From Escherichia phage RB43, in the sequence record NC_007023.1: 64,000 nucleotides of DNA. One strand, 5' to 3'. Position 1 is the first letter of the stretch. Each line of letters starts with the position of its first letter. Positions 16,348 through 41,037 of this stretch are shown here, one piece after another. The position numbers and the translations under genes are program-made. Below the pieces are notes generated by a model. It was given only the letters and a program-made list of their open reading frames with translations, was not told where the DNA came from and searched no databases.

Positions 16348-19300
16348 ATGATTAAAGCGCCATCAATTACCAGTTTGCGCGTTGATAAACTGGCTGCTAA
16401 CTTCGTTTATTTGAAGTGGGATAGCGTCGGCATGGATTTTTACTATGTCGTAGAAATGGCTGAAACTCGCGGCGCGGGTGGTGCAGTGATTCCAGATGCG
16501 GATTTAACATGGTTTCAGTTAGGCTATGCTTATGCGAACGAATGGTTCTCTACTGCTGTGCAGCCTAATAGCTTCTATAAATTCCGTATTAAGGTTACGC
16601 ATCAGGGCTTTGAACCGTCTGATTGGGTTTACAGTGATGAACTCTGGACATTCACTCTCAACGCCTACGCATATTCAACCATGCGAGAATTTACACCGAG
16701 TGACGCATTTATAAACGAAAAATTCGCTAAAAACAATCAGAACTATGTGAACTTTAACAATGATGTGATCATGGCAGCGCTGATGAAAGAAGACTTTGTT
16801 TTCTCTCCGCTGTATACGGACGTATCCCAGATCAGTGATAAAATTCTTACTCAGGAAAACTATCACGAGATACAGGATCATATTGAACACGTTTGTAATG
16901 ACATTAACAGAACGTTTCTGGTTGCGTCAAATGGTTTGTTATACCTGTTCGAACGTTTTCAGAACATGGCTAAGGTATCCAATGACAAGGGCCAAACATG
17001 GCATTACTACAAAGCGTTTAACGACCGCGTAGGAAACCCTGTAGCGCGTTCTATCGCGTACCAAAGCACAAACACAACTTACGTATTGGGTTACGATCGT
17101 ATCTTCTACGGGCGCACCTCAACGGATATTCGCTGGTCTGCTGACGATGTGCGATTCTCTGCTGACGATATCACCTTTACAAAACTGGGGAACCAGACAG
17201 GGTTAGATTTTGATGTTGACTCATACAATACCTTTGCAAAACTTCCTGGTGATGTATCGAAATATGCAGAAGCAATGGCATGTTCCGACGATTGGCTTTA
17301 TGTTGCAGCGAAAAACATAGTTCGTCGTATTGCTCTGAAACAAACACCGATCGACACCGATCCGAGTTCTCCAACTTTTGGGGAAAAGATTTTCGACGAA
17401 ACAAGCTATACCATTGTTCCAGGCAATGATAAAATTGTTGTTAAGAAAATGGATGTGATGGACAGCAAACTTTACGTGCTCGTTACAGGCGAAGTTAAAG
17501 TTGCTCTGCAAGATCCAACAAAACCGGAAAACGTAGTTCCTTCTGTTGATTCTGGTGTGTATCAGTGGCAAGAAGACACTAAAACCTTTGTGCGCCTGTA
17601 TGGGAACACTGAGGAAGAACGTTTCTTCATTGAACATGAATACACCAATATGTCAACAAACGGAAAAGAAATTTATATTTCTGTTGCCAACTACAAATAC
17701 CCAGGAACTTTGCCAGATCCTGAACTGCTGATAACTAATCCTGAATTGGTTGCTGCTGTTAAGTATGATTTGCGTCCTGGCTATACTGCTAGTCTGTCTA
17801 TCAACTTTGCTACTATTCGAGCAAATATTGATGATCCGACCGTGTGGAAATTCGGCGCACAGGAATACTACAACGAGGCAAATTATAGCTGGTTCTTCCG
17901 TGATTCTGTTCGTACATGGATCACGAATGATAACCGTCCGTTGGTTGTGTATCCGAAAATTGTATATGAAATGGTAACTGATACCGCTGGACCTTCTTCT
18001 ACGTTGCGCGTCAACAAAGAGGTGTGGGATCGTGGACATGTTACAATTTACATTAACAACATTAAATTTACCGGATTTACCAAATACACTAACGGTGTGT
18101 TGTTGTATAAAAGTTCTGGTGAAATTATCGGGTTCTTTGAACTGAGTTACCGCGCTCGTGATAGCCTTACGATTTTCTGGAAACCAGATAACACATTACT
18201 GATTGCGGATCTTATTCAGCAGGAAAGGGAACAACCTTATGTACCGGATTTGTCGCCCGGTTTGATTGATCCTGATTTAAGCCATATGATTACTCGCTTT
18301 GCACCACAAAGCTATCTGGATCAGGAATATTTCGAGAAGTTTGGTGAATATTATTTGCAGTTCGTTTCGTTGGGTGAAAACACCTACTATAACAAATTGC
18401 TGAACCTTATCAGGAACAAATATCCACGCGAGAAGAACTGTGTTGAATATTTGTGGTCGGAAGTAAACCGACGCAATATCTATCTGGATAAAACGAAGCG
18501 TGATCAAGTTGTGCGATTCTTTGAATCCCGTGCGAGTGATTTTTACTCCACGAAAGGTATCGAGGCAAGTTATAAATTCCTGTTCAAACTGCTGTACAAC
18601 GAAGACGTATCCGTAGAAATCGAGAGTTCAAACACTCTGGAATATGATATACTGGTTTCTTCGACTAACATCAGTCAGGACATTGTAGGGCGCACGATTT
18701 ATACACCAACAGCAAGAGCAAACGTGACATATATCGAACGTGATTATGAAGACGGGCAATTGCGATGGTCTATGACTCTGCATAACGTGATCGGTAACTT
18801 CCTTGAAGGACAGGTTGTTAAGTCAGAAAAGACTAATTTCACGGGTAGTATTCTGCGTGGTGTTCGTGGTAAGCAAATGGCGAACAACTCGATCGACTAT
18901 TTCAACCGTGGGCGTTCATACTACGTGATGAAAATCCGTTCAAACCTTCCGGCTTCTCGTTATAAAGATGACGTGTTGCGGTTTGTGCATCCGGTAGGTT
19001 TTGGCTTTATCGGGATCACTATGCTGACGGTGTTCATTAACTCCGGTTTGTCGATGACCCATAGTGAAACAATCATTGATATCCTCCGAAACTATCGCTT
19101 TGATAGCGGATATCCTAAGTATTGGCCCGATCGTGTTGCACGTCTTGACGGTAACGGAAACCAGACATTTGACCTTGTAACAGGTGAAGCATTATATGAA
19201 CCACACCCTAAAGCGGGGCAACCGTTCGATGTTCCACCACAATATGACATTGATGAACAACCGTTAAACGGTGTTTTGCCGTCTGCGCGTCGATTCGATC

Positions 19301-19431
19301 AAAGTCCTCTGTTCGATAGTTCAGCGGTTAAATACTCTCAGTTCCGTAACTTAGTGGAAAAACGATTGAAAGACGATGCGGGTAATCCTCGTGATCCGAA
19401 TCCACCGACTCAGAGAAAGGTAGGAAAATAA
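16348..19431 (+). CDS. 7: baseplate wedge protein gp7
   Basis: 1027 aa; size and synteny with T4 gp7. Confidence 0.9.
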   Translation: MIKAPSITSLRVDKLAANFVYLKWDSVGMDFYYVVEMAETRGAGGAVIPDADLTWFQLGYAYANEWFSTAVQPNSFYKFRIKVTHQGFEPSDWVYSDELWTFTLNAYAYSTMREFTPSDAFINEKFAKNNQNYVNFNNDVIMAALMKEDFVFSPLYTDVSQISDKILTQENYHEIQDHIEHVCNDINRTFLVASNGLLYLFERFQNMAKVSNDKGQTWHYYKAFNDRVGNPVARSIAYQSTNTTYVLGYDRIFYGRTSTDIRWSADDVRFSADDITFTKLGNQTGLDFDVDSYNTFAKLPGDVSKYAEAMACSDDWLYVAAKNIVRRIALKQTPIDTDPSSPTFGEKIFDETSYTIVPGNDKIVVKKMDVMDSKLYVLVTGEVKVALQDPTKPENVVPSVDSGVYQWQEDTKTFVRLYGNTEEERFFIEHEYTNMSTNGKEIYISVANYKYPGTLPDPELLITNPELVAAVKYDLRPGYTASLSINFATIRANIDDPTVWKFGAQEYYNEANYSWFFRDSVRTWITNDNRPLVVYPKIVYEMVTDTAGPSSTLRVNKEVWDRGHVTIYINNIKFTGFTKYTNGVLLYKSSGEIIGFFELSYRARDSLTIFWKPDNTLLIADLIQQEREQPYVPDLSPGLIDPDLSHMITRFAPQSYLDQEYFEKFGEYYLQFVSLGENTYYNKLLNLIRNKYPREKNCVEYLWSEVNRRNIYLDKTKRDQVVRFFESRASDFYSTKGIEASYKFLFKLLYNEDVSVEIESSNTLEYDILVSSTNISQDIVGRTIYTPTARANVTYIERDYEDGQLRWSMTLHNVIGNFLEGQVVKSEKTNFTGSILRGVRGKQMANNSIDYFNRGRSYYVMKIRSNLPASRYKDDVLRFVHPVGFGFIGITMLTVFINSGLSMTHSETIIDILRNYRFDSGYPKYWPDRVARLDGNGNQTFDLVTGEALYEPHPKAGQPFDVPPQYDIDEQPLNGVLPSARRFDQSPLFDSSAVKYSQFRNLVEKRLKDDAGNPRDPNPPTQRKVGK

Positions 19432-20423
19432 TGGCTCAACAAAACATCTACCGTGCGGTAGTAACAGGAAAATTCCGCACGGAAAACATGATGAACTTTC
19501 GTGATATGATCGGGGATGACCCCGATCACAACTCGATTTATATGTCAATCGGGAGAACTGAACAATGGGCTGATAACGAATCAGATCCTGAATTCGCTCC
19601 CCCGTATCCAAACGATGATACAGATGGTATTGTTGATATGTGGACGCATATGATCGGGGCGACAAAAGTTCCTGGCGAAATGATTGATGCAATCGTTCCG
19701 CGTAAAGATTGGGGCGATACTCGCTATCCAAACCCTAAAATATTCTATGTGAATGATATCGTGGTTGTCAACTCCGCACCTTACAACCGTACTGACTACG
19801 GGAAAGGATGGATGATTTACCGCGTTGTAGACGTTCCTGATATTGGTTCTTGTTCTATTTCCAGTATCACAGGTAAAGTCGAATGTGTGCGCATTGGTGG
19901 TATCTGGACACCGACCCATGAATCTGTTGAACCTCCACGCGGAGAAGCAAACGGAATTGATATGGGCGACGGGTACAAGTGGGAATATCTTTATACGATC
20001 CCGCCTGATGTCGTTATCAACCGATGCACAAACGAACATATCGTTGTTCCGTTCCCTGATGAACTGGAAGAAGATCCGGTACGCTGGGGTTATGACAACG
20101 TGATCAAATGGTATCCAGATATGTATGATCTGGTGTTCCGTATGAAAGTTCATTCAATGCGATTCCGTGCGTATATGGATTCTCTATTTTTCCCGCAAGC
20201 CTCGCTACCTGGCAACCGTGGATTCCGTCAAATCAGCGTGATTGTTAACCCGCTGTTGAAAAAGGCGCAACCAACAGACCCAGAAGTGAAAGCAACCGGA
20301 CAATTCTATACAAAGGATCAATTCGAACTGGATTCTGGACAGATGATCTATATGGAAAACAGACAACCGATTATTCGATCCCCAGATCAGACCGAAGAAG
20401 TCAGTATTATTTTCGAATTCTAA
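19431..20423 (+). CDS. 8: baseplate wedge protein gp8
   Basis: Extensive match to T4 gp8 (YRAVVTGKFRTE..., IVPRKDWGDTRYP, GYKWEYL, MIYMENRQPII). Confidence 0.9.
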   Translation: MAQQNIYRAVVTGKFRTENMMNFRDMIGDDPDHNSIYMSIGRTEQWADNESDPEFAPPYPNDDTDGIVDMWTHMIGATKVPGEMIDAIVPRKDWGDTRYPNPKIFYVNDIVVVNSAPYNRTDYGKGWMIYRVVDVPDIGSCSISSITGKVECVRIGGIWTPTHESVEPPRGEANGIDMGDGYKWEYLYTIPPDVVINRCTNEHIVVPFPDELEEDPVRWGYDNVIKWYPDMYDLVFRMKVHSMRFRAYMDSLFFPQASLPGNRGFRQISVIVNPLLKKAQPTDPEVKATGQFYTKDQFELDSGQMIYMENRQPIIRSPDQTEEVSIIFEF

Positions 20424-20433
20424 GGAAACCATA

Positions 20434-21297
20434 ATGGCATATCAAACAGGTAAAAAATTAATTGACGTGGGGCAGATCGGCAACCCGTCAACTGGTGACC
20501 CGCTGTATGACGGCGGTGTTAAACTTAACGAAATCATCACCAACGTGTATAATGCGTTCGGTGATGTGCGTTTGCTGACTGCAAATGATGGTGTTGGTAC
20601 AATGCTGCTTCATGCAACTGGATATTTCCAGAAGTTGCCAAGAACGTATTATTCAGCAAACCCGATCGAACTGGGTTCATTGCATGATATGGATACAGCA
20701 ACAGGGCCAATTACGGTTGTTCTTCCGTCTGGTAAGGCTGGCGAAGGGTGCTATTTCATAAATAGTAACGGTAGTATTTCTGTTGATCGTCCTGTTGTAT
20801 TTCGTCCTCAAGTAGGCGATAACATCAAAGGGGTTAAGGATCAGCTTTATATCACTTCTCCTTACACCCAGATTAAATTATGGTGTGTGAAGAAAGAAGG
20901 TTCAGTAACCACATGGGATTATTCAGTCGAATCTATGTTCGGCTCTAAAACAATGCCCGTGGATACTACCAAACTAATTTTGAAAGCATCACCGACCGCA
21001 ATTCCTTTATTCGGTTACAGTGAATTCAGCGGGGCTAAGTTGCTAGTATATGCTGAAAATATGACAGGTACAGTCAACAAAATGGCTGAACTTCTCCTGT
21101 CTGTGGATCGTATCGCAAGGGGCGTATATTCTACGGAATATGCTGTACTGAAAAATAGCGATGATGACATGTATTCACTTACTTTCACTGTCGGTGCTGG
21201 TGACATTGTATATGCAAACGTCCAATCGGTACTCGAAGATCGAATTAAGTTCTCGATTAAAGCGGTTGACACCATTAAATCAGGGATCGCAGCATGA
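20434..21297 (+). CDS. 9: baseplate wedge tail fibre connector gp9
   Basis: 287 aa; synteny and size. Confidence 0.85.
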   Translation: MAYQTGKKLIDVGQIGNPSTGDPLYDGGVKLNEIITNVYNAFGDVRLLTANDGVGTMLLHATGYFQKLPRTYYSANPIELGSLHDMDTATGPITVVLPSGKAGEGCYFINSNGSISVDRPVVFRPQVGDNIKGVKDQLYITSPYTQIKLWCVKKEGSVTTWDYSVESMFGSKTMPVDTTKLILKASPTAIPLFGYSEFSGAKLLVYAENMTGTVNKMAELLLSVDRIARGVYSTEYAVLKNSDDDMYSLTFTVGAGDIVYANVQSVLEDRIKFSIKAVDTIKSGIAA

Positions 21298-23111
21298 AAC
21301 AAGAAATTATTATTGGTAACGTGGTTGATGATGGCGCTGGCGATTACTTACGCCGTGGTGGTCAGAAAACAAACGCGAACTTTACCGAACTATACGAAAA
21401 GCTGGGTGATGGGGAGATCCCACACCCAGCGGGTGCATGGAAAACACATTCAGCACCGACTCTGAACCCGATTTTCGGTGATTCATGGGCGCTGAATACC
21501 AGCAACAACCGTATTACTGTAAACCTCCCTAAAGGCGGCGTAGGCGATTATAACAAGGTTATTCGTCTGCGTGACGTATGGAGTAAATGGGCTGTAAACA
21601 ACGTCCGTATTGTTCCTGCAACTGGTGATACCATCAAAGGATCACCAACTTACAAAGAACTGTACAAAGATTTCATGGATGTTGAGTTAGTTTATTGTGC
21701 GCCTGGTCGTTGGGAATATGTCGAAAACAAACAGGTTGACAAAATCACAACTTCCGATCTGGCTACTGTAGCAAAAGAAACATATATTGCTACACAAGGA
21801 CAGACAGATTTCCCGAATGTGTTTGGCCCTGGTAACTCGTACAACGTCCGTGCTCTGGAAGTTTACTATCGTGGTAACTTGCTGTACATCGACGACAAAA
21901 ACGGATTTGTTGAAGCAAACAGCGATTATGGTTCACCTGGTACAAACCCTGGAGAATTGATTGACCTTGATGGTACTAACATACGCCTTAAACGTCCGTG
22001 TAACGCTGGAGACACGCTTCAATTCGTAACCTATATGGATGGTATAGCGACATGGCGATCGACGTATGAGGCGCATACTATGCGCGTATACAACACGGGT
22101 GATACTGAACTGGTAAGCGTACCTGGTGAAATCTGGGTTGGCAACCTTGCAACCAAAAAAGAATTTACCACTGCTGAATTCGGGATCAGTTCTCGTGTAT
22201 TGATTAATCCGAACTCTTTCGAACTGCTGTTGAACGGTCGCCAACTTGTTAAAGCAGGTGACGCGGATCTTCCTACATTCGTGTGTGAAGGGGCAGAAGG
22301 TTATGATGAAGATAGCTGTTTAGCTAACTCCGGTGCGTGGGTTCCTTCTGGACAGGACTACAGTTTGATCTTTGTTGATTCCATTGTAACAGGTATCAAA
22401 TTCAGTCAACCTCTTGAAAGTCGCGATGTTGTTACGATCCGTTGGTTCAATAACGATATCGGAACTGTAATGGAATGGGAAGGTGTTGGCGGTATTAAAG
22501 AGCATACCGATAAAATCTATCTGAACAACGAAGAAGAGTTAACCCTAGTTGGACGGATTGAATATACCGACTATAACAACCCGTCGCAGAAAACGATGCG
22601 TAAAATTACGGAACCTTTCAGCGGTCGATTGCTGGATCTGCAAGCGTTTTTTGATGTGATTCATCCGATCGGGACGATCTACGAAAACGCGCATAACGAC
22701 GCAAACCCAGGCGAATACATGGGCTTCGGTATCTGGAAACGGTACGCAGAAGGTCAATTTATCGCTGGTTGGACAACTGATGCAGCAGATAGCGATTTTG
22801 GTTTAAACAACAACGATTTGGATGGTTCTGGACAGCCTACACACACAGCAGGTGGTTCTGGTGGTGAACGTGGTTATGAAATTCATCCGATCAACGTTCC
22901 ACAAATTGAATCAACCGATAAAGTTCTGATTAAGGACGACAACGGGATCATTATCATTGGTGGCTGTCAGGTTGACCCAGATGCAACAGGGCCAGGATAC
23001 ACTAAATACCGTGAGGATGTATTGAAAGTAAATCAGGGTAACACTACCCCAGATAAACTTAAAACGCTCCCTCCGTATATTACTGCACATCGCTGGATAA
23101 GGGTAGCATAA
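21294..23111 (+). CDS. 10: baseplate wedge subunit and tail pin gp10
   Basis: 605 aa; synteny and size. Confidence 0.85.
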   Translation: MKQEIIIGNVVDDGAGDYLRRGGQKTNANFTELYEKLGDGEIPHPAGAWKTHSAPTLNPIFGDSWALNTSNNRITVNLPKGGVGDYNKVIRLRDVWSKWAVNNVRIVPATGDTIKGSPTYKELYKDFMDVELVYCAPGRWEYVENKQVDKITTSDLATVAKETYIATQGQTDFPNVFGPGNSYNVRALEVYYRGNLLYIDDKNGFVEANSDYGSPGTNPGELIDLDGTNIRLKRPCNAGDTLQFVTYMDGIATWRSTYEAHTMRVYNTGDTELVSVPGEIWVGNLATKKEFTTAEFGISSRVLINPNSFELLLNGRQLVKAGDADLPTFVCEGAEGYDEDSCLANSGAWVPSGQDYSLIFVDSIVTGIKFSQPLESRDVVTIRWFNNDIGTVMEWEGVGGIKEHTDKIYLNNEEELTLVGRIEYTDYNNPSQKTMRKITEPFSGRLLDLQAFFDVIHPIGTIYENAHNDANPGEYMGFGIWKRYAEGQFIAGWTTDAADSDFGLNNNDLDGSGQPTHTAGGSGGERGYEIHPINVPQIESTDKVLIKDDNGIIIIGGCQVDPDATGPGYTKYREDVLKVNQGNTTPDKLKTLPPYITAHRWIRVA

Positions 23112-23773
23112 TGACACAATTTATTTCAAAGACAAGGGAGGGGGCGAAAGTCCCTTCCCGTGAAGCAGACTTTTTGCAATATGAAATGGGTACTAAAGAC
23201 CCTCTTATCGGTGGTAAACGTACTATCGGTGGTGCAAACGTCGATCAGCTTCGTAAAGGGGTAGATTATCCCAACGTGCAATCAGCAATCGATGACCTGT
23301 ATACTCTGTCTCAACAGATCCCGATCAACGGGGTTATCATGATGACAGAAGACAGTCCTCCGACCGCTGTTCAGCAGGTAGAGACTATAACTTTTGATGG
23401 TACTGTACAAAACACAGATCCAGACCAGACAAAAGCAACAATTCATGTTTATGGATTCCCGTTCGTGTTCGATAACACAACGAACGCATCAACCGTATGC
23501 GAAACAGTCTACAACAAGTTTACTGAATTTGTCAATGACGAAAAATATTTCGATCTGGTAACTCGCAAGGGCTTGAACGGTGAAATTCTGGAAGTTCGGT
23601 TTATTGATTGTGTTCCGCATCCGGTAACAAATACTACTGAAAACGGAATATCTATGGTAGGAACAATCGATGTACAGGCACGATCTGGTTACGGTACGTG
23701 GTCGAAACTGGGTGAGGTGGATCTTGCTGTAACTCCGGCAGTTCCAATTTTCTACTTTAAACGTATTGCGTAA
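23111..23773 (+). CDS. 11: baseplate wedge subunit and tail pin gp11
   Basis: 220 aa; synteny and size. Confidence 0.85.
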   Translation: MTQFISKTREGAKVPSREADFLQYEMGTKDPLIGGKRTIGGANVDQLRKGVDYPNVQSAIDDLYTLSQQIPINGVIMMTEDSPPTAVQQVETITFDGTVQNTDPDQTKATIHVYGFPFVFDNTTNASTVCETVYNKFTEFVNDEKYFDLVTRKGLNGEILEVRFIDCVPHPVTNTTENGISMVGTIDVQARSGYGTWSKLGEVDLAVTPAVPIFYFKRIA

Positions 23774-23782
23774 GGATAACCA

Positions 23783-25174
23783 ATGAGTAACAACACAATT
23801 AACCACGTAAGCGATGCGTCCGTTTACGTGACTTTTGATCCGGCAGGTACGCAATGGCCCTCGACTTTCGTCAACGTACAGCAAGCATTAGCCTCTATAG
23901 GCCCGTGGGCGCGTACTGATGTTGGTTTGCCTAACGCGGCTCCTGGTATGCGTGGTATTGCTGCTATTGCTACCGAGGCGATGATTGACGCAGGGACAGA
24001 CAACGAAACGATCGTTACTCCTGCATTGCTGGCATATCGTTTACAAAATCCTCATGCGTCACAAACCGTTTGGGGATATACCAAATACGCAACTGATGCG
24101 GAAGCGGTTGATGTCGCAAACGATCTGGTTTCATTAACTCCGCGTTCGATCAATGTGGTTTTCAATACCAGACACGCATCAGAAACCGTGTGGGGTTCTT
24201 CTAAACTGTCAACGACAGCACAGGCAACAGCGGGTACTGATGATACAACCTCAATGACACCATTGAAGGTAAAACAAGCAATCTCTGCTCTGGTTCCGGT
24301 ACAATCCAACGCAACAGAAAGCGCGTTCGGTTTGGTTCAGTTGGCTACGGTTTCAGAAGTCCGCGCGGGTACTATTCGCGACGGTTTCGCAATTTCACCG
24401 TATACGTTTATTCGTCTGAATGCAACAGAAAGCGATCTGGGTATTGTTCGCCTAGCAAGTCAGGCAGAAGTAAACGCAGGAACTGATGATACCAAAGCCG
24501 TTACCCCGTTAAAACTGGCTAACCTTAAAGGCTCCGGTGGTTCTTTCGGTTTGGTTAAATTATCAACAGAAGTAAACGCAGGGCTGGCTAACACTGCTCT
24601 TTCTGCGGGTGCTAACGTAGTACCGAGCAACCGTGACAGCGCTATCACTGGTGGTGCATTGTATCAGGGTTCAGTTGCTGCTGCTAATAAATACCAGACA
24701 CATAGCGATATCGAAGCATCGTTACCGATTGGCTGTATGATGATGGCTGCATTTAACTCCGATTACGGAAACCTGTGTATTGCCAACGGTCGCGGGATGT
24801 ATACATACGAATACCCTGAACTGTTTGCACTTATAGGTTATACGTATGGCGGTAGTGGTAACATTTTCAACCTTCCCGATATGCGAGGCGTGGTTGCTCG
24901 TGGATTTGATGCGGGACGTGGTTTAGACCCAGGTCGCGGTTTTGGTACATACCAGCATCACGAAGTACAGTCACATGAACACCCTCTGCAAATGATCTAT
25001 CAGTCTGGTGGTAACTTACCATCATGGCAGTGTGTTTATGAACTGCGTACTGCGGAGAAAAACGACCAGCAATTATACTGGCCTGATCCTTCACTCAGTA
25101 AAGCAATGGCTGTTGGCGGCAACGAAACGCGAATGAAGAACCTTGCGATCAACTATGTAATTCGAGTACGATAA
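23783..25174 (+). CDS. 12: short tail fibre protein gp12
   Basis: Repeats (SQTVWGYTKYATDAEA, SETVWGSSKLSTTAQATAGTDDT, SAFGLVQLAT, GSFGLVKLST) and C-terminal His-rich site HHEVQSHEH. Confidence 0.85.
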   Translation: MSNNTINHVSDASVYVTFDPAGTQWPSTFVNVQQALASIGPWARTDVGLPNAAPGMRGIAAIATEAMIDAGTDNETIVTPALLAYRLQNPHASQTVWGYTKYATDAEAVDVANDLVSLTPRSINVVFNTRHASETVWGSSKLSTTAQATAGTDDTTSMTPLKVKQAISALVPVQSNATESAFGLVQLATVSEVRAGTIRDGFAISPYTFIRLNATESDLGIVRLASQAEVNAGTDDTKAVTPLKLANLKGSGGSFGLVKLSTEVNAGLANTALSAGANVVPSNRDSAITGGALYQGSVAAANKYQTHSDIEASLPIGCMMMAAFNSDYGNLCIANGRGMYTYEYPELFALIGYTYGGSGNIFNLPDMRGVVARGFDAGRGLDPGRGFGTYQHHEVQSHEHPLQMIYQSGGNLPSWQCVYELRTAEKNDQQLYWPDPSLSKAMAVGGNETRMKNLAINYVIRVR

Positions 25175-25186
25175 AGGGGTTAATCC

Positions 25187-27475
25187 ATGATTTCAAAACT
25201 TAACCCGTTACCAAAGATCCCGTTTGTTGATGGTGTCCCTTCGGACACCACACAAACCCCGATCAACTGGATAATTAACGGCGAAACTCTCGATGGTGCT
25301 AAAACCAAAGTCACTAACGAGGGTTCTTTAAACAGGTGCGGTGTTCTGGTACAAAAGAACGCGGTGCAATTAGAAACCAACACCATTACACAGACTGCAA
25401 AAATCAACGAAGTTATCGATCAGGTTAACCTCATTAGTGAAAACCTCGCGGCTATTTCTGATGAAAGCGTGATTGACAAACTGGATCAGGTTGTTGCTGA
25501 TGTAGAAGTGTTGAAAGTTGATATGACTGCGGTTCAAGGTTCTACTGCAAGCAATACCCTGAAAATCCAGGATCTCGATAAAGAGATCGGGACGTGGGAC
25601 GCTTCAACAGATCCTAAACACCGTACCATTCGAAAAGATATTATTTTCCTGAAAGGGGAAATGGGTGCGTACCCTGGGTTTAACGAAAACGGCGACGTAG
25701 ATCCGACATCAACGGGTTCCGGCATGAAATACAAAATCATGACGAACGCGCAAGCGATTTCGATTCATGAAGGACGTATTACGCGCCTTGAAGATGATTG
25801 GGCTAACTCAGACGTAGGTCATTTAACTGATGAAGTAACCGATCTGCGTAACGAAATGGGGCCAAAACATTTAGCGACATTTGAATCTGTATATGTTCGC
25901 CTGAACACTATCGGTACTGAGATCACTGGTATCAATTCCGAACTAACCAGCATCAACCAATATATCGGTCGTACTGGCACGGGTGGAACTGGTAGTATTT
26001 CTGCGCGTATGACTACGGCAGAATCGAATATCGCAACCCTGCAAACGCAGATGAATGATTCTGCTACTGGTGTATTACCTCGCGTAATTTCTTTGGAAAA
26101 TGCTGTCGGTAACTCTCAGATCCCTGGTAGTATTCGTTACGACATCAGCGCAATCAAACGTGACATCGGTGATATCAACATGATCGTCGGTGAATCAAGC
26201 GATGATGGTCTTCGTGGGGAAATGGCTCAGGTTATGACCGATATCGGTACTGATTCACAGCCTACGAGCATCAAAGGCCGTTTGCTGAACGTTGAGAACA
26301 CCCAACGTGACGATCATCAGAAACTGATTGACGTTGAATCTGTTGTTGGTAATACTTCAAGTGGACTCGTTGCGGCTAATATCGCGATGGGTAAAGCTGT
26401 TTACGGTGATGCAACGAGTTCTGATCCATTCCTGAAAGACGGTATTCAGAAAACAGCGCGTGACAGTAAAGCGGCTATCGGTGTAAACACAACCGGATCT
26501 GAAACAGGGATCTATAAACTGATTTCGGATTTGACTGCTCGTGTTGCTGCACTTGAAAGCGGTACTGGTGGCGAACTTGAACAACGTGTTTCTGATTTGG
26601 AAACCAATAAAGCATCGCATCAGGACGTTGCAAACGCATTGGTTCCGTATATTACCGAAGCGGAAGCAGATGTTAAGTACGAACCGAAGAAAATTCCGTT
26701 ATCGTTTACGCAAAACCTTGTTGGGCGTGGCGATTATATCGAAGGTGATGACATTTCTTTCATGGTTACGGTAACAGGTGGTAAACTGCCTTATGTCTAC
26801 CAGTGGAAGAAAGGAACCGCTGATGTAGGTACTAACGCATCGAGCATTCTGATCCAAAGCATTACCTCTGCCGACGCTGGCGTGTATAAAGTTGTTGTTA
26901 CCGATGCAGACAACACCGTAATTACTTCTGACGAAGTGACGGTTGCTGTTTATCCGGTTCCTCAGTTTGATACTAACCTGGCTGACAAATCGGTGGTTGA
27001 CGGTGATCCTCTGACTCTGGAAGTTGTATACAGCGGTGGTAAACCTCCGTACACTTACGAATGGTTCAAAGATAACTCTGTTATCTCTGGGGAAACATCA
27101 GCAACATTTACCAAATCTGCTGTTACAAGCGCTGATGCTGGTGAATACTATGTTTCTGTAACTGACGCAATGAACAACCAAAACGATTCAGTGAAAGCAA
27201 CCGTGACTGTAACACCTCGTCCGGCTCTTGCATTCACTACGGATCTGAGTGCTACTAAATCATACAGCACAGGTGCTAACATGGATCTTGCTGTTGTCGT
27301 GACTGGTGGTAAAACACCATATACGTATAAATGGTTTAAAGACACTGCGGAAATTTCCGGTCAGACAGGTGCAAGCCTTACCACTGTAGCAGAAGATGGG
27401 GTGTATAAAGTCGAAGTGACGGATGCACTAACGACTAAAATCACATCAACTGAATGCACGGTAACTGTGGCATAA
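25187..27475 (+). CDS. wac: fibritin (neck whisker) with C-terminal triple Ig-like domain array
   Basis: N-terminus LPKIPFVDGVP...NEGSLNR like T4 wac; coiled-coil middle; C-terminus has three repeats with PYxYxWxKD...SADAGxYxVxVTD; no foldon. Confidence 0.8.
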   Translation: MISKLNPLPKIPFVDGVPSDTTQTPINWIINGETLDGAKTKVTNEGSLNRCGVLVQKNAVQLETNTITQTAKINEVIDQVNLISENLAAISDESVIDKLDQVVADVEVLKVDMTAVQGSTASNTLKIQDLDKEIGTWDASTDPKHRTIRKDIIFLKGEMGAYPGFNENGDVDPTSTGSGMKYKIMTNAQAISIHEGRITRLEDDWANSDVGHLTDEVTDLRNEMGPKHLATFESVYVRLNTIGTEITGINSELTSINQYIGRTGTGGTGSISARMTTAESNIATLQTQMNDSATGVLPRVISLENAVGNSQIPGSIRYDISAIKRDIGDINMIVGESSDDGLRGEMAQVMTDIGTDSQPTSIKGRLLNVENTQRDDHQKLIDVESVVGNTSSGLVAANIAMGKAVYGDATSSDPFLKDGIQKTARDSKAAIGVNTTGSETGIYKLISDLTARVAALESGTGGELEQRVSDLETNKASHQDVANALVPYITEAEADVKYEPKKIPLSFTQNLVGRGDYIEGDDISFMVTVTGGKLPYVYQWKKGTADVGTNASSILIQSITSADAGVYKVVVTDADNTVITSDEVTVAVYPVPQFDTNLADKSVVDGDPLTLEVVYSGGKPPYTYEWFKDNSVISGETSATFTKSAVTSADAGEYYVSVTDAMNNQNDSVKATVTVTPRPALAFTTDLSATKSYSTGANMDLAVVVTGGKTPYTYKWFKDTAEISGQTGASLTTVAEDGVYKVEVTDALTTKITSTECTVTVA

Positions 27476-27481
27476 TTTAAC

Positions 27482-27503
27482 AAGGGGCGCAAGCCCCTTT
27501 TGA
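27482..27503 (+). terminator. rho-independent terminator (GGGGCGCAAGCCCC plus T4)
   Basis: Hairpin after wac stop; same hairpin at 63675-63688. Confidence 0.5.
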
Positions 27504-27510
27504 GGATCAT

Positions 27511-28434
27511 ATGATTACGAACAATCCTGAACAATTGAAGGATGAAATTCTTCGTCGTCTGGGCGCACCAATCATCAAAATCGAAATCACACAAGACCAG
27601 ATTTACGATTGCATTCAACGCGCACTGGATCTGTATGCGGAATATCACTACAACGGAACAAACAAAAGTTACATTATCCTTACGTTAGGCGAAGACAACC
27701 CGCGAAACGTATTTGATTTGAGTAAAGAACATATTTTCGCGGTTACAAAAGTATTGCGTACAAATATCGGTTCATTGGTTTCTATGGACGGTACAGCGGT
27801 TTATCCGTGGTTTACTGATTTCCTGATGGGGCTTACTGGTGGTTCTCTGGGCGGTCGCTGTGCATCAAGCGTGTACGGTATGAATGCATATGGCGCGGAT
27901 CTGGGGTATTTTACACAGATGATGTCATATCAACGTTCAATGCAAGAGTTGCTGGCTCCATTACCTGATTACTGGTACAACGATGACACTGGTCAGTTTT
28001 GTGTATGGGGTAAAGTCAACAACGGTGATATTATTGTCATTGAAGTGATGGTAAGATCCTTTGTCGATGTTCCTAGTGCCGTAGGAAGCGTTGCAGGATA
28101 CGCTACAGCGGGTTCTAACGCAGTAGAAGACCAATCCATAGCCGACATCTACGATAACCCGTATAACGCGGTTGTGGGCGGTGTACGAGCGGGACAGGGT
28201 ACAACTGTTACTGGTGGAACCTCTGCATATAACAACCGTTGGGTAAAAGACTACTCAACCGCGCTGGTAAAAGAAATCAACGGGCAAATTCTGGCTAAGT
28301 TTCAGGGTATGCAATTGCCTGGTGGTGTTGCTCCAGATGGAACACGACTGATTCAGGAAGCGGAAACCAAATTACAAGGATTGCGCGACGAACTGATTTC
28401 TATGTCTGACGCAGTTCCTATTATTATGGTGTAG
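27511..28434 (+). CDS. 13: neck protein gp13
   Basis: 307 aa; synteny after wac. Confidence 0.85.
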   Translation: MITNNPEQLKDEILRRLGAPIIKIEITQDQIYDCIQRALDLYAEYHYNGTNKSYIILTLGEDNPRNVFDLSKEHIFAVTKVLRTNIGSLVSMDGTAVYPWFTDFLMGLTGGSLGGRCASSVYGMNAYGADLGYFTQMMSYQRSMQELLAPLPDYWYNDDTGQFCVWGKVNNGDIIVIEVMVRSFVDVPSAVGSVAGYATAGSNAVEDQSIADIYDNPYNAVVGGVRAGQGTTVTGGTSAYNNRWVKDYSTALVKEINGQILAKFQGMQLPGGVAPDGTRLIQEAETKLQGLRDELISMSDAVPIIMV

Positions 28435-28442
28435 GGGGAATA

Positions 28443-29189
28443 ATGCAAAACTGGGATGAAAGTTTATTCGCTCAGTTGTCAACGGGGGAGGGAGTCGATC
28501 GCAACTTAAAGGATCAAGTCACTAACCCGTATGTAAACTGGTACAAATATAACCCAACACAACAGCTACATGATTCACTTACAGCAGAATCAATCCAGAT
28601 GAAATCACCTGATATGTATTATGTCAGACGTGAATTTGTGAATATAGATAAAATTCTGGGTGAAGACCGAGAGTCTAAATTCACGAAATCGTGGAAGATC
28701 GCTGCATATATTGAATCATATGCTAACTATGAAGGACAGCGGGACTTCTTTAGCAAATTCGGGTTGAGTTCTAACGACGAAATGACGCTGGTACTAAATC
28801 CGCGTTTATTTGCACATCAAACTGATGGTGGTATTCCGGTGCTGGGGGATTTGGTTTATTTCCCAATGGATAACAGCTTGTTTGAAATTACATGGGTGGA
28901 AGCAGATCCGTTCTATCAGTTCGGTGATCGTCCTCAACGTAAAATCAACCTGGCTAAATTCATCTACACGGGCGAAGAATTGGCTCCTGAATTGCAGCGA
29001 AACGAAGGAATCCATATCGAACCTGATGCAGAACTGGATCTTGAACCTATTCGAAATCTTGACGGGCTGGCAGATATTAACATTGAACAGTACGAAGAAG
29101 ACAAAGAATTTGAAAGAGAAGGTGACGAGTTTATCGAATCTTTTGATGTTGTCAACGGTCGCGGTTCTCCGTTTGCTACACTGCCCTAA
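28443..29189 (+). CDS. 14: neck protein gp14
   Basis: 248 aa; synteny. Confidence 0.8.
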   Translation: MQNWDESLFAQLSTGEGVDRNLKDQVTNPYVNWYKYNPTQQLHDSLTAESIQMKSPDMYYVRREFVNIDKILGEDRESKFTKSWKIAAYIESYANYEGQRDFFSKFGLSSNDEMTLVLNPRLFAHQTDGGIPVLGDLVYFPMDNSLFEITWVEADPFYQFGDRPQRKINLAKFIYTGEELAPELQRNEGIHIEPDAELDLEPIRNLDGLADINIEQYEEDKEFEREGDEFIESFDVVNGRGSPFATLP

Positions 29190-29261
29190 ATACAAATAGG
29201 GGAAACCCTATATATGTTGGGGTGTATGGTGAAAACCTGCACCCGATTCAAAGAGGATCTT

Positions 29262-29876
29262 ATGATATACACAAAACTTAAAGAATGGTTGCCTCATGAT
29301 CTATACGTTGAGTATGTTGATATCATAACGGCTTCACCAAAAACAGAATACACAGAAAAACATCATATATTACCACGATCGCTATTTCCTGAATTTGAAA
29401 ACGACCCAGACAACTTAGTAGAACTTGATGTGATGAAGCATTTGATGGCTCATAGGACATTAGCAAAAACCAATGACCATAAAATGATTCTCGCGTTTTT
29501 CATGATGTTCACCTACGAACATAAACGTTATTCTACATTGTCAGAACAGGAACAACAATTTATTCTTGAAGAAAAGACAAAAGCCCGTGAAGCAATGCGT
29601 GTTGTTAAAAAAGAACAGATGAAAGGTAAATATGATGGTGAAAACAACCCATTTTACGGAAAACGACATACTGATGAATTTAAGAAAATGATGGGTTCTG
29701 TGCATAAAGGTAAGAAGTTATCACCAGAACATTTAGCAAATCTCGTTGCCGCACACAAAGGCAAAAAACGAGAAAAAGTAAAATGCCCCCATTGTGGGAT
29801 AATGTGCGCCGCTAATACAGCAAAGCGCTGGCACTTCGATAACTGTAAGTCTGGACTTGTCCAGCAGGGGGATTAG
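29262..29876 (+). CDS. free-standing HNH homing endonuclease (NUMOD3-type repeats)
   Basis: EKHHILPRS HNH core; NPFYGKRHTDEFKKMM and HKGKKLSPEH repeats; C-terminal CPHC; inserted between gp14 and gp15; ATG 29262 with AAGAGGA SD. Confidence 0.7.
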   Translation: MIYTKLKEWLPHDLYVEYVDIITASPKTEYTEKHHILPRSLFPEFENDPDNLVELDVMKHLMAHRTLAKTNDHKMILAFFMMFTYEHKRYSTLSEQEQQFILEEKTKAREAMRVVKKEQMKGKYDGENNPFYGKRHTDEFKKMMGSVHKGKKLSPEHLANLVAAHKGKKREKVKCPHCGIMCAANTAKRWHFDNCKSGLVQQGD

Positions 29877-29927
29877 AAAATTTTCGGATATTGGTATAAT
29901 AGTTCGCTGCGTAACTATATCGTTCTT

Positions 29928-30703
29928 ATGGGACAATTGTTTAACCATGTTCAAGTTAAACGAGTGCGTGGCGAACAAGAAAAATTCATTAAGGTTCCGA
30001 TTACCTATGCTTCAAAAGAGAAGTTTCTCGCTTCCATGAACAAACTCAACTACACGTTGAGTCAGGAAAACGTAGCGAAAACGGAAACCATTTTACCGCG
30101 AATGAATCTATCACTGGTGGACCTGCAATATAACGCAATTCGTAAAACCAGTATCGCGGTTAACCAGAAAATGTCGCAGTTACAAGCACCGCGTAAAACG
30201 ATCACACAGTTTAACCCTGTGCCATATCGTCTAATCTTTGAACTGGGTGTGTACACTCGTTACGAAGACGATATGTTTCAGATCGCAGAACAGATTTTGC
30301 CTTATTTTCAACCGCATTTCAACTGCAAGATTACCGAACTGCATAAGAACGAAATCAAAGTTGACCGAGACATCAAAATTAGTCTCCAATCGGTTGCACC
30401 AGATACAACGTTTGAAGGTGATGTTACCCAGCGCCGACACGTTGAATGGTCTTTCATGTTTGAATTACAGGGTTATCTGTACCCGCCTGTGACTGATGTC
30501 AAAGGTGAAATCAGAACAGTATACACGGATTTCTTTGCAAATATGAACCCACTGGACAAGGATAACTTTGAATCAGTGGACAGTCAAGCAGATCCGGTTG
30601 ATTTACCGCTTCAAGATTATACAGGCGAAGAATACATTCAGACTTATTCGCGCAACACGCCGATCCCGTCTGGTGATGAACCTCCGAAGCCGAGGGGAAC
30701 ATA

Positions 30704-30704
<1 letters not shown>
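29928..30704 (+). CDS. 15: tail sheath stabiliser / tail terminator gp15
   Basis: KFIKVPITYASKE, TILPRMNL, YTRYEDDMFQIAEQILPYFQPHFN match T4 gp15. Confidence 0.85.
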
Positions 30705-33038
<2,334 letters not shown>

Positions 33039-37881: not shown

Positions 37882-38529
37882 ATGAATGAATCCCAACTCA
37901 ATGAAAACGGCGATATGCTGCTAATCGAGGAATGGGGTTTACCTTGTGCGGATATTTCTGATTCTATTTTGGAATCGGTCGGAACGTCGAAAGACGGTAA
38001 ACTTAGGATTGAAGGTATTTTCCTGCAAGCCGAAAAAGTTAACCGAAATAAACGACTGTATCCGAAAAAAGTATTAGAAGAAGCAGTAAATGACTATATC
38101 AGAACTCAGGTTAATACCCGTCAAGCTCTGGGTGAAATGAATCACCCGCCGCGACCGAACGTCGATCCGCGTAATGCTTGCATCCTCATTGAAAAAATGT
38201 GGTGGAAGGGTAATGACGTTTGGGGCCGTGCTGTTGTTGTCGAAGGTGACAATGGTGATGGTGATAAACTTGCAGCGTTAATTCGTGCTGGTTGGGTTCC
38301 TGGTGTTTCTTCTCGCGGATTAGGTAAACTTGCCGATTCTGGTAAAGGTTACGGTATCGTACAAGAAGGTTTTAAATTGGCAGTAGGTGTTGATGTTGTT
38401 TGGGGGCCAAGCGCTCCAGATGCTTACGTTAAGCCAATTACCGAATCTCAGCAGACAAAACCGCTTGTTGAGAATATTAGTGCTGATGACGCTTTCAGAA
38501 AACTTTCTGAACGTTTGAAAGGTCTATAA
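37882..38529 (+). CDS. 21: prohead core protease gp21
   Basis: NRNKRLYPK, NHPPRPNVDP, MWWKGNDVWGRA, GWVPGVSSRGLG match T4 gp21. Confidence 0.9.
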   Translation: MNESQLNENGDMLLIEEWGLPCADISDSILESVGTSKDGKLRIEGIFLQAEKVNRNKRLYPKKVLEEAVNDYIRTQVNTRQALGEMNHPPRPNVDPRNACILIEKMWWKGNDVWGRAVVVEGDNGDGDKLAALIRAGWVPGVSSRGLGKLADSGKGYGIVQEGFKLAVGVDVVWGPSAPDAYVKPITESQQTKPLVENISADDAFRKLSERLKGL

Positions 38530-38532
38530 ATA
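38525..38532 (+). promoter_or_regulatory. T4-type late promoter box TATAAATA
   Basis: Exact TATAAATA about 28 nt upstream of gp22 ATG. Confidence 0.45.
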
Positions 38533-38559
38533 ATATCATATCAAACAGGAAACTTAGAA

Positions 38560-39348: not shown

Positions 39349-39369
39349 TCTTTTATAAGGTAAGAAACA

Positions 39370-40944: not shown

Positions 40945-40957
40945 TCGACTTTACACT

Positions 40958-40990
40958 AAAAGGCAACCTACGGGTTGCCTTTTTTGTTTG
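40958..40990 (+). terminator. rho-independent terminator (GGCAACC-TACG-GGTTGCC plus T-run)
   Basis: Perfect 7-bp stem and TTTTTTGTTT after gp23 stop. Confidence 0.7.
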
Positions 40991-41037
40991 TGTAAATAGA
41001 TACAGGTAAAACACCATATAATTCAGGAACCATAGAA

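What the first reader, a model, noticed from the sequence alone, without database searches (positions are those of the whole stretch)
29262..29876. HNH homing endonuclease inserted between neck gene 14 and tail terminator gene 15
T4 has genes 14 and 15 adjacent. Here a free-standing HNH gene with NUMOD3-type repeats occupies the junction inside the conserved late operon. It is a mobile insertion that may bias inheritance of flanking structural genes in mixed infection.
Basis: partly seen in the sequence, partly recalled or inferred. Interest (0 to 1): 0.45.

Follow-up and report, generated by a model that had tools for sequence, protein, structure and literature searches.

The report
Mob-type homing endonuclease gene in RB43
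The window is phage RB43, and the flagged ORF is an intact selfish nuclease gene of the well-known T4 Mob/HNH type lodged between genes 14 and 15; it is already catalogued, but relatives show that it comes and goes, sits on a recombination boundary, and usually travels with an ATT in place of the ATG start of essential gene 15.

Summary
The window is phage RB43. ORF 29262-29876 (+) encodes 204 aa and lies between gp14 (28443-29189) and gp15. It belongs to the T4 Mob family: PHROG 655, 28% identity to T4 MobE, and one NUMOD3 match. The residues invariant across 48 family members (H34, H35, N51, H60, H64) and a C-terminal CPHC...RWHFDNC motif are all present. It is free-standing, with no Rfam match. 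The site is polymorphic. Miller has the gene, while CfP1 of the same species has an empty 79-nt spacer. RB16 and Lw1 carry an unrelated CapR-domain ORF (PHROG 'endonuclease') there. Two Klebsiella phages keep only deletion remnants. Orthologues at 46-89% identity occupy the same junction in Slopekvirus, Jiaodavirus, Acj9 and metagenomic contigs. dN/dS is about 0.10. Two extra points emerged. The gp15 frame really begins at 29880, where most gene-bearing alleles have ATT; every empty site has ATG (one metagenomic contig with a 178-nt spacer, which I did not examine, has GTG). A roughly 12-kb block that is 99.5-100% identical among RB43, RB16, Miller and CfP1 ends at this junction. The core finding is already known: a mob-like ORF is reported for RB43, and Miller's copy is annotated MobE. 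Cleavage and homing are untested.

The parts
29262..29876 (+). Mob-family HNH homing endonuclease gene (204 aa plus TAG stop)
   Evidence: ORF; PHROG 655 at 1e-46 and NUMOD3 at 1.5e-6; 28% identity to T4 MobE; dN/dS about 0.10; AF2 model mean pLDDT 90.6.
29361..29453 (+). HNH catalytic stretch: H34, H35 ... N51 ... H60 ... H64
   Evidence: These residues are invariant in the 48-sequence alignment A2. The family profile aligns this stretch to solved HNH domains. The AF2 secondary structure is strand 31-35, strand 52-56, helix 57-68, i.e. beta-beta-alpha.
29634..29693 (+). NUMOD3 DNA-binding motif (aa 125-144)
   Evidence: Pfam PF07460, 28.4 bits against a cut-off of 20.4.
29784..29846 (+). C-terminal CPHC-x10-RWHFDNC zinc-finger-like motif (C175-C195)
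   Evidence: C175, P176, C178, R189, H191, D193 and C195 are conserved in at least 90% of A2. RB43-GVA carries a nonsense change inside this motif.
29245..29259 (+). Small predicted hairpin GAUUC-AAAGA-GGAUC holding the endonuclease Shine-Dalgarno (AAGAGGA, 29251-29257)
   Evidence: RNA folds. An equivalent CCUCU-UCA-AGAGG hairpin is predicted in Taquito and RB16, but not in KLB25, so this is tentative.
29196..29244 (+). Two strong intergenic hairpins (29196-29211 and 29220-29244) that belong to the host 14-15 spacer, not to the inserted gene
   Evidence: They are present and fold equally well in the empty-site phage CfP1 (z about -4.3 to -4.6).
29249..29885 (+). Segment that replaces the empty-site sequence AAACCCATACAGGAAAATAAAATGTTT of CfP1
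   Evidence: Alignments of RB43, Miller and CfP1. The left edge lies at 29249-29253. The last 15-20 nt still resemble the empty-site SD and spacer, with substitutions that include G to T at 29882.
29880..30704 (+). Gene 15 (tail sheath stabiliser) read from its true first codon, ATT at 29880-29882; SD-like AGGGGGA at 29866-29872
   Evidence: Translation from 29880 aligns residue-for-residue with T4 gp15 from residue 1 (PDB 3j2m/4hud, 7.6e-86). The Pfam match for the ATG-29928 version starts only at profile position 14. Codon 1 is tabulated across relatives.
28443..29189 (+). Gene 14 (neck protein), the upstream flank
   Evidence: PF11649 at 6.5e-87 and PHROG 679.
17180..29926 (.). Block 99.5-100% identical to Miller and CfP1 (and to RB16 as far as 29176); its right edge lies at the nuclease cassette
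   Evidence: Sliding identity and mismatch maps. There are 46-70 differences in 12.7 kb, against 668-710 in the next 12.6 kb.

Best explanation
ORF 29262-29876 is a functional, free-standing homing endonuclease gene of the T4 Mob family. It has an N-terminal HNH nuclease, a NUMOD3 DNA-binding motif and a C-terminal zinc-finger-like motif. It sits in the gene 14 / gene 15 spacer of phage RB43.

Inferred mechanism, by analogy with T4 MobE:
- The gene has no exact-consensus late promoter nearby, so it is probably transcribed with the late neck/tail genes.
- Its ribosome-binding site may be partly masked by a small hairpin.
- In a cell co-infected with a relative that has an empty 14/15 spacer, the enzyme nicks or cuts that genome at or near the spacer and the start of gene 15.
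- Recombinational repair from the endonuclease-bearing genome then copies the gene, and some flanking DNA, into the cut genome.

Shown here: identity of the family, an intact motif, purifying selection, site-specific presence/absence, decay remnants, and coincidence with a recombination boundary. Inferred only: enzymatic activity, the target site and the homing itself.

I further propose that the G-to-T change making gene 15 start with ATT is linked to the cassette because it lies in the target and protects carriers from cleavage. Gene 15 would then be initiated at AUU.
For: - Family: PHROG 655 at 1e-46 and NUMOD3. The best T4 match is MobE, between nrdA and nrdB.
- Motif: H34, H35, N51, H60 and H64 are invariant in 48 homologues. 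The family profile hits solved HNH domains. 27 of 48 members reach Pfam HNH.
- Free-standing: no Rfam family matches.
- Polymorphism: Miller (present) and CfP1 (empty) belong to one species and have 99-100% identical flanks. Other empty sites are seen. Internal-deletion remnants lacking the HNH motif occur in phi1_146002 and Fraggle.
- Site fidelity: every homologue of at least 46% identity whose context I checked lies between gp14 and gp15. These are KLB25, KP182, MY742, L014, L015, L117 and Acj9. More distant homologues lie elsewhere.
- Selection and transfer: dN/dS is 0.09-0.11. Between RB43 and KLB25, dS of the gene is 0.97 against 2.1-2.3 for gp14 and gp15.
- Boundary: the near-identical block ends 47 nt into gene 15 against Miller and CfP1, and 12 nt before the gp14 stop against RB16.
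- ATT link: codon 1 of gp15 is ATT in RB43, RB43-GVA, Miller, Taquito, KLB25, L014, both remnants, KP182, L117 and Acj9. It is ATG in all empty sites, including KP1079, a 97.8%-identical empty relative of KP182.
- Precedent: MobE is promoterless, nicks the 5' part of the downstream gene in the endonuclease-less phage, and recombination points map within the first 189 nt of that gene (PMC2790892).
Against:
- The protein on its own does not reach the Pfam HNH threshold; it has LFPEFEND where most relatives have GGxD.
- The SD-masking hairpin is weak and is not predicted in KLB25.
- The 12-kb block has the same left edge in all three cross-species comparisons, and CfP1 carries the block without the gene. 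The block exchange therefore cannot be attributed simply to this endonuclease.
- MY742 and L015 carry a 46-51% identical homologue with a normal ATG on gene 15, so ATT is not obligatory.
- The sister isolate RB43-GVA has a premature stop in the gene, so it is dispensable in the laboratory.
Confidence: 0.85

Rival explanations
1. The RB43 copy is an inactive relic: a former homing endonuclease gene that is decaying and no longer cuts DNA or moves.
For: RB43-GVA carries TGC to TGA at 29807, truncating the zinc-finger motif. Remnants in phi1_146002 and Fraggle show that decay happens at this site. The protein alone misses the Pfam HNH threshold.
Against: The window's ORF is full length with every family-invariant residue. 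It is identical to Miller's copy. dN/dS against Taquito and KLB25 is about 0.10. The AF2 model is confident, with mean pLDDT 90.6.
Confidence: 0.08
2. The gene is ancestral at this position and was deleted in the relatives that lack it, so it is not an insertion or a mobile element.
For: Deletion remnants prove that loss occurs. Homologues are at the same site in several genera.
Against: Empty sites in several divergent phage groups share short spacers of 13-80 nt with ATG. They show no residual endonuclease sequence detectable by tblastn. At most 10 of 151 Jiaodavirus-type records span the gene. Between RB43 and KLB25 the gene's dS is less than half that of its flanks. Pseudotevenvirus and Slopekvirus empty sites share a conserved non-coding AACCCATACAGGAAAA that gene-bearing alleles lack.
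Confidence: 0.04
3. It is a domesticated HNH protein serving the phage, for example as an accessory to the terminase genes 16 and 17 just downstream, as in HK97-like cos phages (from my own knowledge), or as a weapon that excludes competing phages without moving itself.
For: It lies two genes upstream of the terminase genes. It is under purifying selection. Homing endonucleases are implicated in partial exclusion of T2 by T4 (PMC2993671).
Against: It is absent from same-species and many other relatives that package normally. It is truncated in viable RB43-GVA. Its architecture is that of the T4 Mob endonucleases. Exclusion of competitors is a by-product of homing, not an alternative to it.
Confidence: 0.03

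Closest known systems
T4 MobE (free-standing HNH homing endonuclease between nrdA and nrdB)
   Same: It shares PHROG 655 and is the best T4 match at 28% identity over 88% of the protein. The domain order is the same: HNH, NUMOD3, then the C-terminal CPHC...RWHxDxC motif. Both are wedged between two conserved genes of one operon with no exact promoter consensus of their own (PMC2790892). MobE acts on the 5' part of the downstream gene, and here the mosaic boundary lies 47 nt into the downstream gene.
   Different: The locus differs: neck/tail genes rather than ribonucleotide reductase genes. This protein has LFPEFEND where MobE has GGSDD after the His-His, so it misses Pfam HNH, which MobE reaches. 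It has one scored NUMOD3 and is shorter (204 against 232 aa). It is accompanied by a non-ATG start on the downstream gene. Its activity is untested.
Hef and SegH, which replace mobE and mobC in T4 relatives (Sandegren et al. 2005, cited in PMC2988022)
   Same: Endonucleases of different classes target the same gene or occupy the same gap. Here the 14/15 gap holds either the Mob-type HNH gene or, in RB16, Lw1 and others, a CapR-domain ORF that matches a PHROG annotated 'endonuclease'.
   Different: The locus and the second occupant are different. The two cassettes here share the same 5' leader, TCTTCAAAGAGG, up to the start codon, which suggests one replaced the other in place. I did not check whether this was described for Hef or SegH.
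Aeh1 mobE and the T4 intron endonucleases, regulated by an RBS-sequestering hairpin
   Same: A small hairpin that includes the SD is predicted directly upstream of the start codon in RB43, Taquito and RB16. The precedent is reviewed in PMC2988022.
   Different: The stem is only 5 bp and is absent in KLB25. No exact late promoter lies inside it, only TACAAATA at 29191. Regulation is therefore conjecture.
Nuclease genes at boundaries of genetic exchange / 'HEG islands' (Barth et al. 2023, PMC10448857)
   Same: The cassette sits at the edge of a block that is 99.5-100% identical between genomes otherwise 83-95% identical.
   Different: That study centred on ICP1-like phages and on T5orf172 and AP2-HNH genes. 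It mentions neither RB43 nor this site.

Membership tests
T4 Mob-type free-standing HNH homing endonucleases | Detectable sequence homology to T4 Mob proteins | tested here: met
   PHROG 655 at 1e-46. tblastn to T4 gives 28% identity over aa 18-196 at E 1e-11, landing on the ORF between nrdA and nrdB, which is itself assigned to phrog 655.
T4 Mob-type free-standing HNH homing endonucleases | HNH (beta-beta-alpha-metal) motif with His-His, Asn and His intact | tested here: met
   H34, H35, N51, H60 and H64 are invariant in 48 homologues. The profile aligns them to HNH domains of 6me0, 6ghc and Cas8f-HNH. The strand-strand-helix pattern appears in the AF2 model.
T4 Mob-type free-standing HNH homing endonucleases | NUMOD3-type DNA-binding module and C-terminal Cys/His motif | tested here: met
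   PF07460 scores above its cut-off. CPHC...RWHFDNC is conserved in at least 90% of the family.
T4 Mob-type free-standing HNH homing endonucleases | Free-standing: intergenic, not inside an intron or intein | tested here: met
   It lies between the gp14 stop and the gp15 start. No Rfam family, and so no group I intron, matches.
T4 Mob-type free-standing HNH homing endonucleases | Presence/absence polymorphism at a fixed site among close relatives | tested here: met
   Miller against CfP1, KP182 against KP1079, and many others.
T4 Mob-type free-standing HNH homing endonucleases | Site-specific nicking or cleavage of the endonuclease-less allele | not testable with these tools
   This needs purified protein or in vivo mapping. 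A candidate target (AACCCATACAGGAAAAnnAAAATGTTTGG) is inferred.
T4 Mob-type free-standing HNH homing endonucleases | Motif-dependent super-Mendelian inheritance in mixed infection | not testable with these tools
   Support is indirect only: lower dS than the flanks and position at an exchange boundary.
Pfam HNH (PF01844) | Score above the gathering threshold | tested here: not met
   There is no HNH hit for this protein at E up to 0.1. 27 of 48 aligned homologues and T4 MobE do hit. The miss reflects the LFPEFEND replacement of GGxD, not loss of catalytic residues.
Intron-encoded HNH endonucleases (I-HmuI type) | ORF embedded in a self-splicing group I intron | tested here: not met
   No intron model matches, and the flanking genes are separate cistrons. 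No PDB sequence or fold hit to I-HmuI was obtained.
Terminase-associated HNH of cos phages | Conserved partner of the terminase and required in all relatives | tested here: not met
   It is absent from many close relatives with the same genes 16 and 17.

The most novel reading that the evidence does not exclude
The start codon of essential gene 15 is part of the homing site. The cassette-linked ATG-to-ATT change (TTG in the RB16-type cassette) would be the immunity mutation that stops carriers, and decayed ex-carriers, from being cut. A selfish nuclease would thus have locked a virion gene into AUU initiation across several phage genera, and every current annotation of gp15 that I inspected in these genomes starts 15-28 codons too late.
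Probability: 0.3. Interest if true: 0.55.

Novelty: already known. Interest (0 to 1): 0.33.

Why it matters
The gene itself is ordinary. T4-type phages are full of Mob and Seg endonucleases, RB43's mob-like ORF was reported in 2006 and 2010, and Miller's copy is annotated MobE.

What the comparison adds is one natural locus that shows the whole life cycle of a free-standing homing endonuclease:
- empty site;
- intact gene;
- deletion remnants;
- replacement by an unrelated nuclease-like ORF.

The locus also sits on a recurrent boundary of genetic exchange in the structural-gene region. The linked ATT start on gene 15 is a concrete, cheaply testable lead. It bears on where the enzyme cuts, and on how a selfish element can alter expression signals of an essential neighbour. 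It also points to a systematic annotation error, the truncated gp15 start, in these genomes.

Tried and rejected
- **PDB sequence search.** A search with the single protein gave only noise, with E above 1.
- **Paralogues.** A search for paralogues in the 64-kb window found none.
- **Promoters.** The exact late-promoter consensus TATAAATA is absent between 14327 and 34424. One-mismatch sites exist, including TACAAATA at 29191, but I could not validate them. The sigma-70 scan and terminator scan showed nothing above shuffled expectation.
- **IMG/VR scan.** A scan with a conserved gene 15 20-mer returned only four loci, so I sampled empty sites with a gp15 protein scan instead.
- **Identity of the HEG between RB43 and Miller.** I considered treating the 100% identity as separate evidence of recent transfer. 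I rejected this because it is what the surrounding near-identical block predicts: about 2 differences are expected in 665 nt.
- **The 12.7-kb block as a co-conversion tract.** I considered attributing it to this endonuclease. I rejected that as unproven, because CfP1 carries the block without the gene and RB16 shares the same left edge.
- **dN/dS on the first 16 codons of gene 15.** I considered this as proof of ATT initiation. It is weakened because the divergence may pre-date the arrival of the cassette in each background.
- **Coverage gaps.** Gaps against relatives at about 43.0-43.5 kb and 50.0-50.7 kb were checked for ORFs only, with no domain search, and gave no sign of another nuclease gene.

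Full report
**1. What is there**

The window is phage RB43. Bases 28443-30704 match both RB43-GVA records with one mismatch and match Citrobacter phage Miller at 96.8%. On the + strand the gene order is:
- wac, 25187-27475;
- gene 13, 27511-28434;
- gene 14, 28443-29189;
- the flagged ORF;
- gene 15;
- gene 16, 30704-31240;
- gene 17, from 31203.

The flagged ORF runs from ATG 29262 to TAG 29874-29876 and encodes 204 aa. An AAGAGGA Shine-Dalgarno sits 4 nt upstream of the start. The longer ORF call from 29214 runs through two intergenic hairpins that are also present in relatives lacking the gene. Only short ORFs of 47-81 aa, none of which I examined, lie antisense to the gene, and no Rfam family matches.

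**2. What the protein is**

- It matches PHROG 655 'homing endonuclease' at 1e-46 and Pfam NUMOD3 at 1.5e-6, with one scored unit.
- tblastn against 50,697 phage records finds 698 with a match. The best T4 match, at 28% identity, falls on the ORF between nrdA and nrdB, which is mobE.
- In an alignment of 48 homologues, H34, H35, P38, N51, H60, H64 and L67 are invariant. C175, P176, C178, R189, H191, D193 and C195 are conserved in at least 90%.
- A profile of that alignment hits solved HNH domains over exactly the His-His...Asn...His stretch: a group II intron maturase (6me0, 2.6e-5), McrA (6ghc, 2.2e-4) and Cas8f-HNH.
- 27 of the 48 members reach Pfam HNH. The RB43 protein alone does not. It has LFPEFEND where most relatives have GGxD.
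- The AlphaFold model is confident (mean pLDDT 90.6) and shows strand 31-35, strand 52-56 and helix 57-68 around those residues.
- Fold searches of the whole elongated model against the PDB were uninformative.

**3. Is it an insertion, and is it mobile?**

The 14/15 junction has at least four states among relatives.
- *Gene present:* RB43, Miller, KKP_3664, Taquito, Dev_CS701, KLB25 and others.
- *Empty:* CfP1, IME-CF2, GuL6, phi5, EkoM5VN and others, with a 58-81 nt spacer.
- *Different occupant:* RB16, Lw1, leE, Cronuts and others carry a different 241-aa ORF. It has CapR zinc-finger domains and matches phrog_681 'endonuclease'.
- *Remnants:* phi1_146002 and Fraggle keep the first 22 codons and the last 35-57 codons but have lost the HNH motif.

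Miller (present) and CfP1 (empty) belong to one species and are 99-100% identical for kilobases on both sides. They differ here only in this way: AAACCCATACAGGAAAATAAAATGTTT in CfP1 is replaced in Miller by CAAAGAGGATCTT-[ORF]-TAGAAAATTTTC.

Every homologue of 46% identity or more whose context I examined lies between gp14 and gp15. These are Slopekvirus KLB25, Jiaodavirus KP182, Enterobacter phage MY742, Acinetobacter phage Acj9 and four metagenomic contigs. More distant homologues sit elsewhere. Among 151 records matching the KP182 junction, at most 10 span the gene.

The gene is under purifying selection, with dN/dS of 0.09-0.11 against 0.01-0.04 for gp14 and gp15. Between RB43 and KLB25 its synonymous divergence (0.97) is less than half that of the flanks (2.1-2.3). 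These are the expected signatures of a site-specific homing endonuclease gene that spreads horizontally, persists under selection, and decays after fixation.

**4. Effect on gene 15**

ORF callers start gp15 at ATG 29928, and Pfam then aligns it only from profile position 14. The frame is open back to 29877. Translation from 29880 gives IFGYWYNSSLRNYIVLMG..., which aligns from residue 1 of T4 gp15, MFGYFYNSSFRRYATLMG... (PDB 3j2m/4hud, 7.6e-86).

The state of codon 1 across relatives is as follows.

| Junction state | Genomes | Codon 1 of gp15 |
|---|---|---|
| Mob-type gene, intact | RB43, RB43-GVA, Miller, Taquito, KLB25, L014, KP182, L117, Acj9 | ATT |
| Mob-type gene, remnant | phi1_146002, Fraggle | ATT |
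| Mob-type gene, 46-51% identity | MY742, L015 | ATG |
| RB16-type ORF | RB16, Lw1 | TTG |
| Empty site | all examined, including KP1079 (97.8% identical to KP182) | ATG |

In MY742 and L015 the ATG overlaps or abuts the endonuclease stop codon. One further contig, L110, has a 178-nt spacer with no match to this endonuclease and a GTG start; I did not examine its spacer for other ORFs.

KP182 has no ATG at codon 17, so initiation there must use the ATT or a nearby TTG. An AGGGGGA lies 7 nt upstream of the ATT in RB43.

I infer that gp15 initiates at AUU in these phages. The annotated gp15 starts that I inspected for such genomes are truncated.

The synonymous-only differences across the 16 upstream codons fit this reading. 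They are not decisive, because they may pre-date the cassette's arrival in each background.

**5. Recombination boundary**

RB43 is 83-95% identical to Miller, CfP1 and RB16 over most of the window. From about 17,180 (832 nt into gene 7) to the 14/15 junction it is 99.5-100% identical to all three. Miller against RB16 shows the same block with the same edges.
- Against Miller and CfP1, the first right-hand mismatch is at 29,927, which is 47 nt into gene 15 and just past the endonuclease gene.
- Against RB16, mismatches begin at 29,177, which is 12 nt before the gp14 stop and just before the RB16-type cassette.
- Differences number 46-70 in the 12.7-kb block, against 668-710 in the next 12.6 kb.

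The nuclease cassette therefore marks a recurrent boundary of exchange, as described for other phages (PMC10448857; one search shows that paper does not cover this case). I do not attribute the whole block to this enzyme. CfP1 carries the block without the gene, and the left edge is shared by all pairs.

**6. Mechanism proposed**

The model follows T4 MobE. That enzyme is promoterless and is co-transcribed with the upstream gene. It nicks the 5' region of the downstream gene in the endonuclease-less phage. Its recombination points map within the first 189 nt of that gene (PMC2790892).

The RB43 enzyme would be made from late read-through transcripts. There is no exact TATAAATA between 14327 and 34424, although a one-mismatch TACAAATA lies at 29191. 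Its SD may be partly masked by a 5-bp hairpin, which is predicted in RB43, Taquito and RB16 but not in KLB25.

The enzyme would cut empty alleles near the spacer and the gene 15 start. Pseudotevenvirus and Slopekvirus empty sites share a conserved non-coding AACCCATACAGGAAAA followed by AAAATGTTTGG. Carriers lack the first element and carry T for G in the second. That makes this stretch the best candidate target, and the ATT a candidate immunity change. All of this step is inference.

**7. Comparison with what is known, and novelty**

Nolan et al. 2006 report a mob-like ORF in RB43 (PMC1524935). Petrov et al. 2010 list one mob-like HNH and three HNH-AP2 genes for RB43 (PMC2993671). Miller's copy is annotated 'MobE mobile endonuclease, contains NUMOD3'. 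Different endonuclease classes targeting one gene is also a known pattern, as with MobE and Hef on nrdB (PMC2988022).

The finding as stated is therefore correct but already known. The following points were not found in my searches of the held paper library, which covers only part of the literature:
- the catalogue of states at this locus;
- the shared 5' leader of the two cassettes;
- the cassette-linked ATT or TTG start of gene 15;
- the coincidence with an exchange boundary.

They are modest, testable additions rather than a new kind of system.

Noticed in passing
window 29880-29927: The gene 15 frame begins at ATT 29880, not at ATG 29928. ATT accompanies this endonuclease lineage in several genera. 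Empty sites have ATG and RB16-type cassettes have TTG. Annotated gp15 starts in the carrier genomes I inspected are 15-28 codons short.
   Followed up: yes
window 29807: The sister isolate RB43-GVA (HE981739) differs from the window by a single base in 28443-30704. C to A turns Cys182 (TGC) into TGA, truncating the endonuclease inside its zinc-finger-like motif. That record annotates the CDS as ending there.
   Followed up: partly
window 17180-29926: A roughly 12-kb block (3' part of gene 7, genes 8-12, wac, 13 and 14) is 99.5-100% identical among RB43, RB16, Miller and CfP1, with the same left edge in all three cross-species comparisons, while the flanks are 83-95%. The left edge is 832 nt into gene 7. 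A published Jiaodavirus has a homing endonuclease upstream of gene 7 (PMC9960720), but I did not look for one here.
   Followed up: partly
window 24817-25148: Inside that block RB43 alone has a divergent patch of 27 differences in 330 nt, with the same 96.4% identity to all three relatives. It lies at the 3' end of the short-tail-fibre gene 12, just upstream of wac.
   Followed up: no
window 25187-27475: The whisker protein (wac) is 762 aa. A Fibritin_C match at aa 373-489 is followed by a C-terminal extension with two or three Ig-like and SprB-repeat matches, which T4's 487-aa fibritin lacks (the T4 length is from my own knowledge).
   Followed up: no
L003 2268-2310 vs L005 2268-2305: The RB16-type nuclease-like cassette and the Mob-type cassette share the same leader, TCTTCAAAGAGG..TTTATGATAT, right up to the start codon, then become unrelated. 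This suggests in-place replacement of one gene by the other.
   Followed up: partly
window 29851-29864: There is a palindrome CTGGAC-TT-GTCCAG at the 3' end of the endonuclease ORF, just before the gp15 SD. The arms are conserved while the centre varies (TT, GC, GA, AA). In contig L014 it is replaced by a different inverted repeat, CTGCT-TAAAC-AGCAG.
   Followed up: no
window 29187-29198: The gp14 stop codon is embedded in an (C/T)ATAAATA-like or TACAAATA string in several genera. This is one mismatch from the T4 late-promoter consensus and may be a late promoter for the endonuclease and gene 15.
   Followed up: no
L110 around 2201: One metagenomic T4-like contig has a 178-nt gp14-gp15 spacer with no match to this endonuclease and a GTG start on gp15. 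It may be an older remnant or another junction state.
   Followed up: no
L118 2501-3103 (Acinetobacter phage Acj9): The annotated Acj9 Mob-like ORF runs past the usual C-terminus into gene 15 and ends ...SLHCFDG, which suggests a lost stop codon or a frameshift. Gene 15 there also has ATT at codon 1.
   Followed up: no
window 38000-41000: A second block is nearly identical (99.2-99.6%) to Miller but less so to CfP1 and RB16. It is another mosaic segment whose edges I did not examine for nuclease genes.
   Followed up: no
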